Source: a virus
DNA length: 25,668 nucleotides
Reading direction: 5' to 3' (one strand)
UHGV virus genome: UHGV-0118908
The notes under the pieces are model-generated. The model saw only the letters and a program-made list of their open reading frames with translations. It was not told where the DNA came from and searched no databases. A program made the translations under genes and the position numbers. Positions 25,097 through 25,668 of the stretch are shown here, one piece after another (positions within the stretch are counted from its first letter, which is position 1; each line of letters starts with the position of its first letter).

Positions 25097-25668
25097 ATGA
25101 GCGTAATGATTTTTCAGGCTGGCGGAGATACCAAAATATGGGGACGCAAGCTGAAAACGAAAACCGTTGATCCTGATGATGTAGCTGTGCACTTAGCAAA
25201 TGGCTGGTATAAGCACCCTGACGATGTTCCTGATGATCCTCTTGTTGGTGATCAAATTGGGAGTGTTGGCGGAGGTGAAACTTCCCCAGTTGATATGGGC
25301 GAAGTGTCCGACGGTTATCACACTTTTAACGAGCTTTACGCTCACCGAGTGCGCCTCTTCTCATCGCTGATGCATGCTTACGCTGAGCTTTCGTGGTGGT
25401 CTCGCAAACACAGTGACGGTGAAGAGTGGGATGGCTGGATCATTGCTGGTATCACCACTCCAGAAGGTGAAATCACTTATCACCTACCTGTTGAAGAAAT
25501 CGAGTTCCTTCCTGAAGGTACTGAGCTTGAGTTCGGGAAAGAGTGGGATGGTCATGAAGCAAATGATGTTCTTGGACGACTCCTGAGTTTGCGTCCGGCT
25601 ATTGCAGAGCCAGAGCCAGAGCCAGAGCCAGAGCCAGAGCCAGAGCCAGAGCCAGAGCCAGAGCCAGA
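25097..25668 (+). CDS. Hypothetical protein (3' partial, open to the window end) with duplicated EWDG(W/H) motif and C-terminal (Glu-Pro)n tract
   Basis: ATG at 25097 with GGAG 8 nt upstream; the frame is open through 25668 and absent from the ORF track because no stop is reached; contains GEEWDGWIIAG and GKEWDGHEAND, then AEPEPEPEPE...; not the P22 gp4 expected after coat. Confidence 0.55.
   Translation, partial: MSVMIFQAGGDTKIWGRKLKTKTVDPDDVAVHLANGWYKHPDDVPDDPLVGDQIGSVGGGETSPVDMGEVSDGYHTFNELYAHRVRLFSSLMHAYAELSWWSRKHSDGEEWDGWIIAGITTPEGEITYHLPVEEIEFLPEGTELEFGKEWDGHEANDVLGRLLSLRPAIAEPEPEPEPEPEPEPEPEPEP
25607..25668 (+). repeat. Tandem hexanucleotide microsatellite (GAGCCA)n, at least 10 units, truncated by the window end
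   Basis: Perfect GAGCCA repeats from 25607 to the last base; in frame, encoding alternating Glu-Pro. Confidence 0.9.

What the first reader, a model, noticed from the sequence alone, without database searches (positions are those of the whole stretch)
25097..25668. Non-canonical gene after the coat gene carrying a (Glu-Pro)n linker encoded by a slippage-prone GAGCCA microsatellite
P22-type head clusters go from coat straight to the head-completion gene, but here a terminator follows coat and then an RBS-led ORF that does not match gp4 as remembered. It has an internal duplication of an EWDG(W/H)-containing segment and ends in at least 10 perfect GAGCCA repeats. Hexamer repeats keep the frame on slippage, so linker length could vary between isolates.
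Basis: partly seen in the sequence, partly recalled or inferred. Interest (0 to 1): 0.6.

Follow-up and report, generated by a model that had tools for sequence, protein, structure and literature searches.

The report
P22-like phage gene, variable Glu-Pro linker
The gene after the coat gene is the usual, dispensable, function-unknown occupant of that slot in P22-like phages (epsilon34 gene 6 / phage L orf186 / P22 orf69 family), here in its long form with a WDGH domain, and its Glu-Pro linker really is a microsatellite whose length differs from strain to strain (1 to 16 copies).

Summary
An ORF with a Shine-Dalgarno site starts at 25097, follows a hairpin after the coat gene, and runs off the window inside ten perfect GAGCCA repeats (25607-25668).

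The gene is not non-canonical. It is the E. coli homologue of epsilon34 gene 6, phage L/ST64T orf186 and ST104 ORF54. P22 itself has a shortened version, orf69, in the same slot. The published role is "unknown", and the P22 gene is not essential.

The protein reads: small N-terminal domain, then a WDGH domain (Pfam PF25311, 1.2e-39; PHROG 3769), then (Glu-Pro)n. Complete relatives add a basic tail, EEKQRKKPGRKPKAAADEPDNEG. Their stop codon overlaps the gp4 start.

The slippage prediction is confirmed. Long-form relatives carry 1-5 copies, always in frame. A short form without WDGH carries 1-16. Identical flanking haplotypes carry different copy numbers. This window's count of at least 10 is the highest seen for the long form.

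The WDGH fold has no solved relative. Its only recognisable fusion partners are the Thoeris sponges Tad2 and Sequestin, the restriction-alleviation domain Lar, and DUF551. That hints at a counter-defence role, which is untested.

Interest is moderate: a known family whose linker polymorphism I found described in no paper.

The parts
23758..25053 (+). P22-type major coat protein gene (context; upstream neighbour)
   Evidence: ORF list. An identical 431-aa protein is annotated PF11651 P22_CoatProtein in ten public contigs.
25059..25080 (+). Terminator-like hairpin after the coat gene (AGAGGGAGC-UUCG-GCUCCCUUU, then UCUAUU)
   Evidence: RNA fold -19.2 kcal/mol, z -3.2. It sits where P22 has an annotated stem_loop, 'similar in location to stem-loops in phage HK97 and phage lambda'. 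The 52 bases around it are 94-98% identical in E. coli P22-like phages. No promoter-like site lies between it and the ORF.
25087..25090 (+). Shine-Dalgarno GGAG, six bases before the start codon
   Evidence: Read directly from the sequence.
25097..25668 (+). Long-form 'gene 6 / orf186' homologue. It is incomplete at the 3' end: 190 codons are visible and the window ends inside the repeat.
   Evidence: Translation. PHROG 3769 matches full length at 1e-92. The gene is 98.5-99.8% identical to intact genes in 43 complete E. coli genomes. tblastn gives about 62% identity to epsilon34 gene 6, L orf186 and ST104 ORF54.
25097..25228 (+). N-terminal small domain (aa 1-44; beta hairpin plus helix), shared with P22 orf69 and with the E. 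coli short form
   Evidence: AF2 model pLDDT 91-98 over this stretch. phrog_1175 matches aa 1-44. Alignment A2 has invariant M1 M4 G9 G16 V24 G36 W37 H40 P41.
25298..25591 (+). WDGH domain (aa 68-165), containing both EWDG motifs
   Evidence: Pfam PF25311, 134.9 bits against a cut-off of 27, full profile 1-97 of 97. AF2 pLDDT 94-98. Invariant residues include D72 G73 H75 H83 R84 Y128 D151 G152 R161.
25607..25668 (+). (GAGCCA)x10 + GA microsatellite encoding (Glu-Pro)n, cut by the window end
   Evidence: Tandem Repeats Finder: 10.7 copies, 100% matches. The same array sits at the same site with 1-16 copies in relatives.

Best explanation
SHOWN:
- This is the E. coli long-form allele of the accessory gene that sits between the coat gene and the gp4 gene in P22-like phages.
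- It is read from the late operon. A hairpin but no promoter-like site precedes it. In complete relatives its stop codon overlaps the gp4 start.
- The protein is modular. A 44-residue N-terminal domain and, in complete relatives, a basic C-terminal tail (RKKPGRKPK followed by an acidic end) are the constant parts. P22 orf69 and the E. coli short form consist of little else.
- A WDGH domain is an optional insert between those two parts.
- A disordered linker joins the folded part to the tail. In the E. coli lineage that linker is a pure GAGCCA microsatellite.
- The array's copy number differs between otherwise identical alleles, as replication slippage would produce. The unit is six bases, so every change keeps the frame and only alters the (Glu-Pro)n length.

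INFERRED:
- (Glu-Pro)n acts as a stiff, acidic, extended spacer whose length is tolerated over a wide range. Roughly 0.6 nm per unit gives about 0.6 to 10 nm.
- The window stops in the array because a short-read assembly broke there, so the true copy number is 10 or more.

INFERRED, WEAKLY (about 0.3):
- The WDGH domain is a nucleotide-directed counter-defence module, binding or hydrolysing a signal or nucleotide. The basis is that its only recognisable fusion partners are the immune-signal sponges Tad2 and Sequestin and the restriction-alleviation domain Lar, and that its invariant residues are rich in His, Asp and Arg.
For: Identity and synteny:
- Searches show the order coat, this gene, gp4 in E. 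coli and Salmonella prophages and phages and in metagenomic contigs from unidentified hosts.
- Literature: PMC2629481 says the length is variable, the role unknown, and the P22 gene non-essential. PMC8022706 calls orf186 'detailed function unknown'.

Modularity:
- The short form is N-domain + (EP)n + an identical tail.
- The same coat protein accession, WP_001196946.1, lies next to the long form and the short form.

Intact full-length ORFs with the tail, and overlap with the gp4 start.

Slippage:
- Long form: n = 1 (11 genomes), 2 (11), 3 (8), 4 (8), 5 (2) in the 40 complete genomes tabulated, of 43 matching.
- The 33 sequence-checked loci (30 IMG/VR contigs plus L001-L003) give n = 1-5.
- One identical 510-nt 5' haplotype carries n = 1, 2, 3 and 5, and another carries 4 and 5.
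- Short form: n = 1-9, 13 and 16 in complete genomes; 2, 5, 5, 8, 8 in four isolated phages and one prophage locus, L041; 7-13 in metagenome contigs.
- Alleles only 57% and 78% identical keep the same array at the same site.

Assembly break: partial proteins that end exactly at the repeat, P0002 (33 members) and five short-form partials of 48-49 aa.

Structure: AF2 pLDDT 88.5, two folded domains and a tail without secondary structure.

Function hint:
- P0098 is Tad2 + WDGH + Sequestin. P0074, P0080 and P0103 are WDGH + Sequestin.
- Among 65 long WDGH proteins the partner domains found are Sequestin (3), Lar (2) and DUF551 (1).
- Sequestin was shown to sequester 3'cADPR, and fusion to known sponges was used there as a discovery rule (PMC12265669).
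- Tad2-like and Acb2/Tad1 genes occur among the near neighbours in 41 other phage loci.
Against: - Nothing here tests function. No paper in the library searched mentions WDGH as a protein domain or PF25311.
- The window protein itself has no sponge domain and no PADLOC match.
- Fusions to anti-defence domains are a small minority. Most partner regions have no Pfam match.
- Neighbours in other phages are mostly glycosyltransferases, DnaB and nucleotide-metabolism genes. No base-rate control was run.
- Late-operon expression after the coat gene is unusual for counter-defence genes, most of which act early.
- The length variation may be entirely neutral. The longer arrays in short forms (median about 5 against 2) could reflect shared ancestry.
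- Whether the window ends at a contig end is not known.
Confidence: 0.7

Rival explanations
1. The protein is a head-assembly or virion-associated accessory, such as a minor decoration protein, a packaged internal protein, or a helper for gp4/portal completion. In this reading the basic tail binds DNA or the portal, and the EP rod acts as a spacer.
For: - It always lies inside the head gene cluster, and its stop overlaps the gp4 start, an arrangement compatible with translational coupling.
- The N-terminal domain and the basic tail are conserved even where WDGH is missing.
- In Streptococcus phage IPP39 a WDGH gene also lies in the head module, between the portal and minor capsid protein 2.
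Against: - P22 orf69 is reported as non-essential. The virion gel differences the paper lists for epsilon34 against P22 do not include a roughly 21-kDa gp6-sized band (PMC2629481).
- There is no match to gp4, Dec or any structural PHROG or Pfam family.
- In Staphylococcus, Bacillus and Erwinia phages the WDGH domain lies in early or accessory regions.
- An IS66 insertion in the gene is tolerated in a prophage.
Confidence: 0.15
2. The gene is a decaying remnant kept only because its 3' end carries the ribosome-binding site and start of gp4. In this reading the repeat is neutral junk DNA drifting in length, and the protein has no function of its own.
For: - Repeated loss of the WDGH part, in P22 orf69 and the E. 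coli short form.
- An IS66 insertion in one prophage.
- Non-essential in the laboratory.
- A wide, apparently unconstrained spread of copy numbers.
Against: - The ORF is intact in every long-form locus whose sequence I translated, apart from the one with the IS66 insertion.
- The WDGH domain is extremely conserved, with 16 invariant and 29 nearly invariant positions in 82 sequences down to 42% identity.
- It is widespread: 4597 clusters at 50% identity.
- The N-terminal domain and the basic tail are conserved at the protein level between P22, epsilon34, Klebsiella and Pantoea alleles although the DNA has diverged.
Confidence: 0.1
3. The repeat at the window end is an assembly artefact, and the real gene has few or no repeats.
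For: - The window stops inside the array.
- No other long-form locus has more than 5 copies.
- Many draft assemblies break at this point.
Against: - The same array at the same site is present in finished genomes and isolated phages with up to 16 copies.
- It is also present in independent metagenome contigs with 7-13 copies that read through into the tail and gp4.
- Ten perfect units are joined to unique sequence within the window.
Confidence: 0.05

Closest known systems
Gene 6 of Salmonella phage epsilon34, also known as orf186 of phages L and ST64T and ORF54 of ST104 (P22-like phages, Lederbergvirus)
   Same: It occupies the same slot between the coat and gp4 genes and has the same order of parts: N-terminal domain, WDGH domain, basic tail ending in acidic residues. 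Its stop overlaps gp4. Identity is about 62% over residues 1-167. Function is unknown in the literature.
   Different: The Salmonella proteins have a short fixed linker (RPKEPATKE) and no GAGCCA microsatellite.
P22 orf69 and the E. coli short form (72-104 aa; phages IME10, APC_JM3.2, HZ41, Dewey, Bas106)
   Same: Same slot, a homologous N-terminal domain and the same basic tail. The E. coli short form has the identical GAGCCA array and the identical tail sequence.
   Different: They lack the WDGH domain. P22 orf69 has no EP repeat. Short-form arrays run longer, at 1-16 copies with a median of about 5.
Pfam PF25311 WDGH domain / PHROG 3769 and 3392
   Same: The window protein matches the whole Pfam profile at 134.9 bits and all the conserved motifs.
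Phage immune-signal sponges Tad2 (PF11195) and Sequestin (PF21825)
   Same: In other phage proteins WDGH is fused to one or both of them. A Tad2-like gene and an Acb2/Tad1 gene occur among its near neighbours in 41 other phage loci.
   Different: The window protein contains neither domain and shows no sequence or fold similarity to them. This is association only.
The (Glu-Pro)n-(Lys-Pro)m proline-rich spacer of TonB; procyclin EP repeats
   Same: An acidic EP run is followed by a basic, Pro/Lys-rich run (KKPGRKPK). The comparison with TonB rests on my own knowledge, as a model of a stiff extended spacer. The Pfam Trypan_PARP hit (E 0.00029, well below its cut-off) is compositional.
   Different: There is no homology. 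TonB spans the periplasm, whereas this protein shows no signal peptide or membrane segment on reading its sequence (not tested with a predictor). TonB's spacer is not known to me as a length-hypervariable microsatellite.

Membership tests
Pfam PF25311 (WDGH domain) | Score above the curated gathering threshold over the full profile | tested here: met
   134.9 bits against a cut-off of 27; residues 68-165 match profile positions 1-97 of 97.
Pfam PF25311 (WDGH domain) | Conserved motifs SDGYHTF-ELY-HR, WWS..H.DG, TYHLP and WDGH | tested here: met
   All are present in the window protein, and they are invariant or nearly invariant in 82 homologues.
P22-like 'gene 6 / orf186 / orf69' slot family | Position directly between the coat gene and the gp4 gene, on the same strand | tested here: met
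   The coat gene is upstream in the window. gp4 follows in every complete relative. The window itself ends before gp4.
P22-like 'gene 6 / orf186 / orf69' slot family | Sequence homology to epsilon34 gp6 / L Orf186, including the N-terminal domain | tested here: met
   tblastn gives 61-62% identity over residues 1-167, E 2e-58. PHROG 3769 matches at 1e-92.
P22-like 'gene 6 / orf186 / orf69' slot family | Basic C-terminal tail, with the stop codon overlapping the gp4 start | not testable with these tools
   The window ends inside the repeat. The tail is present in all 98.5-99.8% identical relatives whose sequence I read.
P22 gp4 head-completion protein (PF11650 P22_Tail-4) | Match to the gp4 family profile | tested here: not met
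   No PF11650 hit for the ORF. The gp4 gene is the next gene downstream in relatives.
Capsid decoration protein (phage L Dec type) | Sequence match to a decoration or structural family | tested here: not met
   No structural Pfam, NCBIfam or PHROG family matched; every PHROG hit is 'unknown function'. In L-type phages Dec is encoded elsewhere, as the rightmost gene (PMC2629481).
Phage immune-signal sponges (Tad2, Sequestin, Acb2/Tad1) | Presence of a sponge domain in the protein | tested here: not met
   Only WDGH and a compositional EP hit were found in the window protein. The sponge domains occur in other WDGH proteins.
Phage immune-signal sponges (Tad2, Sequestin, Acb2/Tad1) | Homo-oligomer with positively charged pockets between protomers; binds a signalling nucleotide | not testable with these tools
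Simple-sequence contingency locus (phase variation) | A perfect tandem repeat inside a gene whose copy number differs between close relatives | tested here: met
   One identical 510-nt haplotype carries 1, 2, 3 and 5 copies. The overall range is 1-16.
Simple-sequence contingency locus (phase variation) | Copy-number change switches expression on and off by shifting the frame | tested here: not met
   The unit is six bases, and every variant translated keeps the frame and the tail. This is length variation, not on/off switching.

The most novel reading that the evidence does not exclude
WDGH is a previously unrecognised family of phage counter-defence domains that bind or cleave an immune-signalling or other nucleotide. 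In E. coli P22-like phages it is mounted on a conserved N-domain/basic-tail carrier through a stiff Glu-Pro rod. Slippage constantly re-draws the length of that rod, giving the phage population a standing range of spacer lengths. This would be a frame-preserving 'contingency linker' that tunes reach or spacing, rather than an on/off switch.
Probability: 0.12. Interest if true: 0.7.

Novelty: new member of a known kind. Interest (0 to 1): 0.35.

Why it matters
- Annotation. Pipelines handle this gene badly. RefSeq lists the intact long-form gene as pseudogene fragments or as 'hypothetical'. Gene callers extend gp4 upstream through the repeat in some phages. Many draft assemblies break at the array.
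- Strain typing. An in-frame hexanucleotide microsatellite that ranges from 1 to 16 copies between near-identical prophages is one of the more variable sites in these genomes. It could serve as a fine-scale marker for P22-like prophages.
- A testable lead. WDGH is a very large, strongly conserved phage domain: 4597 clusters at 50% identity. It has no solved relative and I found no literature on it. Its only recognisable fusion partners are two experimentally proven Thoeris sponges, a restriction-alleviation domain and DUF551. The same guilt-by-fusion rule led to the discovery of Sequestin, so WDGH is a reasonable candidate for anti-defence screens.

Tried and rejected
- gp4, Dec or other structural identity: rejected, because no family match was found.
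- NCBIfam hits to DarA, DNA polymerase III tau and SslE: these come from the EP run only and fall far below their cut-offs. The Pfam Trypan_PARP hit is the same kind of compositional match.
- Defence-system component: no PADLOC hits.
- Identity with the Lockin or Acb5 families of PMC12265669: rejected for Lockin from its description as a beta-rich hexamer with no domain annotation. For Acb5 I saw only the abstract, which places it in T2, T4 and T6 and says it cleaves cGAMP. The paper does not mention WDGH, and no supplements were held.
- Internal segment duplication: rejected; only a six-residue motif recurs.
- A real gp4 fusion or N-terminally extended gp4. This was suggested by gp4 proteins sitting in the same 90% cluster and by the long gp4 annotations in IME10 and Dewey. 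My explanation is that the gp4 frame is open through the repeat as (Ser-Gln)n, with a chance ATG just upstream in short forms. That ATG has no usable spacing to a Shine-Dalgarno site, and the long form has no ATG there.
- A profile search with the N-terminal domain alone returned only short-form relatives and no new architectures.
- Literature searches for WDGH, PF25311 and P22 orf69 gave nothing on function.

Full report
THE OBSERVATION

The window is a lambdoid, P22-like prophage. It encodes RecT, an S24 repressor, a DnaB helicase, a Q antiterminator, gp3, terminase, portal, scaffold and coat.

- The coat gene ends at 25053.
- A hairpin lies at 25059-25080: a 9-bp stem with a UUCG loop, running into a U-rich stretch. 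Its energy is -19.2 kcal/mol, z = -3.2 against shuffles.
- It occupies the place where the P22 record annotates a stem-loop 'similar in location to stem-loops in phage HK97 and phage lambda'.
- No promoter-like site follows it.
- GGAG at 25087-25090 precedes the ATG at 25097.
- The frame stays open for 190 codons to the last base of the window.
- The last 62 bases are ten perfect GAGCCA units plus GA. Tandem Repeats Finder reports 10.7 copies, 100% matches, score 128.

The one overstatement is the 'internal duplication'. Only the six residues GEEWDG and GKEWDG recur, and they sit in different secondary-structure contexts.

WHAT THE GENE IS

The ORF is 98.5-99.8% identical to a gene in 43 of 5426 complete E. 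coli genomes. In each case examined it lies between the P22-type coat gene and the gp4 gene. Reading those relatives gives the missing end. After (Glu-Pro)n comes EEKQRKKPGRKPKAAADEPDNEG and a stop codon. The gp4 ATG lies 23 bases upstream of that stop.

Family matches:
- Pfam finds one domain, WDGH (PF25311), at 134.9 bits over residues 68-165.
- PHROG 3769 ('unknown function') matches the full length.
- tblastn against phage genomes shows about 62% identity to epsilon34 gene 6, orf186 of phages L and ST64T, and ORF54 of ST104. Homologues also occur in SE1 and BTP1, all in the same slot.

P22 itself has orf69 there. It consists of the N-terminal domain joined almost directly to a basic tail, KPRKGRKPKAVSDADKD.

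The literature already covers this slot:
- Villafane et al. 2008 state that the homologues of epsilon34 gene 6 differ in length, that the P22 one has an internal deletion, that the role is unknown, and that the P22 gene is not essential (PMC2629481).
- The phage L genome paper calls orf186 'detailed function unknown' (PMC8022706).

The premise that P22-type clusters run from coat straight to gp4 is therefore wrong. This is the regular accessory occupant of the slot.

ANATOMY

An AlphaFold2 model of the full-length relative P0001 reached mean pLDDT 88.5. It shows:
- a small N-terminal domain (residues 1-44; beta hairpin plus helix);
- a disordered stretch (45-65);
- the WDGH domain (66-165; helix, three strands, two helices; pLDDT 94-98);
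- a tail with no secondary structure.

Other E. coli P22-like prophages and phages carry a short form in the same slot. It has a homologous N-terminal domain, the same GAGCCA array and the identical tail, but no WDGH. The same coat protein accession, WP_001196946.1, lies next to the long form and the short form. The slot is therefore exchanged or remodelled independently of the coat gene.

The constant parts are thus the N-terminal domain, a linker and the basic tail. WDGH is an optional insert.

THE REPEAT

Copy number can be read from where alignments stop, and I checked this on sequences.

| Set | Copy numbers (n) |
|---|---|
| Long form, complete E. coli genomes (40 tabulated of 43) | 1 (11 genomes), 2 (11), 3 (8), 4 (8), 5 (2) |
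| Long form, 30 IMG/VR contigs | 1-5 |
| Long form, loci with an identical coat protein | 2, 3, 5, and one interrupted array |
| Short form, isolated phages and one prophage locus | 2, 5, 5, 8, 8 |
| Short form, metagenome contigs | 7, 7, 8, 8, 10, 13 |
| Short form, complete E. coli genomes | 1-9, 13, 16 |

- The 13-copy and 16-copy arrays were verified by translation.
- Every variant keeps the frame and the tail.
- One identical 510-nt 5' haplotype carries 1, 2, 3 and 5 copies, and another carries 4 and 5. The changes therefore recur faster than point substitutions, as slippage predicts.
- Alleles only 57% and 78% identical at the protein level keep the same hexamer at the same site. epsilon34 and P22 have none.
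- The window's count of ten or more is the largest I found for the long form, but it lies within the range for the locus.
- Many draft assemblies yield partial proteins that stop exactly at the array. That is the likeliest reason the window ends there, though it remains an inference.

FUNCTION

Nothing is known experimentally.

The WDGH domain itself:
- It is very large: 4597 clusters at 50% identity with E of 0.001 or better.
- It occurs in phages of Listeria, Bacillus, Streptococcus, Lactococcus, Staphylococcus, Klebsiella and Erwinia, and in cyanophage S-2L.
- It is strongly conserved, with invariant D72, H75, H83, R84, Y128, D151 and R161.

Its genomic position varies. It lies in a head module in Streptococcus phage IPP39, and in early or accessory gene blocks in Staphylococcus, Bacillus and Erwinia phages.

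The only recognisable fusion partners are:
- Tad2-like plus Sequestin (P0098);
- Sequestin alone (P0074, P0080 and P0103, plus three more);
- Lar restriction alleviation (two proteins);
- DUF551 (one in the Pfam scan, and one among the BFVD fold matches).

Sequestin (PF21825) was recently shown to sequester the Thoeris signal 3'cADPR. It was found precisely because it is fused to known sponges (PMC12265669).

Among 139 near neighbours of WDGH genes in 41 unrelated viral contigs, one is Tad2-like and one is Acb2/Tad1. Most, however, are glycosyltransferases, helicases and nucleotide-metabolism enzymes.

I therefore put a nucleotide-directed counter-defence role for WDGH at about 0.3. It is clearly an inference. 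The window protein has no sponge domain of its own, and late-operon expression is not typical of such genes.

THE LINKER

A pure (Glu-Pro)n run followed by a Lys/Pro-rich run resembles the proline-rich spacer of TonB in composition. That comparison rests on my own knowledge, not on a test. The most economical reading is a stiff acidic spacer whose length is tolerated over a wide range.

Short forms carry longer arrays (median about 5 against 2). This could mean that some overall length matters, but shared ancestry was not controlled.

VERDICT

The 'non-canonical gene' reading is not supported. The gene belongs to a known family of unknown function. What is new is the documented hypervariability of its linker and a testable lead on the WDGH domain.

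Noticed in passing
L001 6001-6612 and L003 6001-6594 (RefSeq NZ_CP080255, NZ_CM169495); RefSeq/PGAP annotates the intact long-form ORF as one or two pseudogene fragments ('WDGH domain-containing protein, incomplete, partial in the middle of a contig') or as a shorter 'hypothetical protein'. The full reading frame from the ATG to the tail is open in every copy I translated.
   Followed up: yes
L059 1637-1745 (phage IME10), L061 (phage Dewey), L060, L062: The gp4 reading frame is also open through the repeat, as (Ser-Gln)n. In short-form phages an ATG lies just before the repeat, so some annotations extend gp4 by 31-35 codons (606 and 594 nt instead of 501). 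This probably also explains why gp4 proteins share a 90% cluster with the WDGH protein. It looks like an annotation artefact, but an extended gp4 isoform was not excluded experimentally.
   Followed up: partly
P0002 (168 aa, 33 members); P0198, P0203, P0211, P0230, P0249 (48-49 aa): Many draft E. coli assemblies yield partial proteins that end exactly at the start of the GAGCCA array. Contigs commonly break at this microsatellite, as the window does.
   Followed up: partly
L043 4340-7296 (CP066366): In one prophage with an identical coat protein, an IS66-family element (HTH_Tnp_1, TnpB_IS66, DDE_Tnp_IS66) is inserted in the gene after codon 54. The WDGH part resumes downstream.
   Followed up: no
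L046, L048, L049, L052 (metagenome contigs): The same GAGCCA hexamer array (6-19 copies, encoding Glu-Pro) occurs in the N-terminal region of proteins whose C-terminal part carries GVNGxGKTTT and DTAGR GTPase motifs. I recognised these as SRP-receptor FtsY by eye and did not test it. Two of the contigs begin inside the array.
   Followed up: no
window 10225-10256 and 10291-10319: Two blocks of a perfect 11-bp repeat, TTGTCCAACGG (2.9 and 2.6 copies), lie inside the 296-aa ORF 9839-10729. That ORF has no Pfam match and directly precedes the DnaB-type helicase gene. They look like origin iterons inside a lambda-O-type initiator gene.
   Followed up: no
window 1007-1642 (- strand): The prophage's early-left region encodes a DUF551 protein (PF04448, 1.3e-19). 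Elsewhere DUF551 is one of the few domains found fused to WDGH.
   Followed up: no
L002, L003 and L065: The identical coat protein accession WP_001196946.1 is followed by the long form in two genomes and by a 16-copy short form in another. A recombination or deletion boundary therefore lies between the coat stop (the hairpin region) and this slot.
   Followed up: partly
L070-L149, non-P22 loci: The commonest recognisable neighbours of stand-alone WDGH genes in viral contigs are family-2 glycosyltransferases (6), GDP-mannose dehydratase/epimerase (2), dNMP kinase (2) and dCMP deaminase (2). Several of these loci are probably related to one another, and the meaning is unclear.
   Followed up: no
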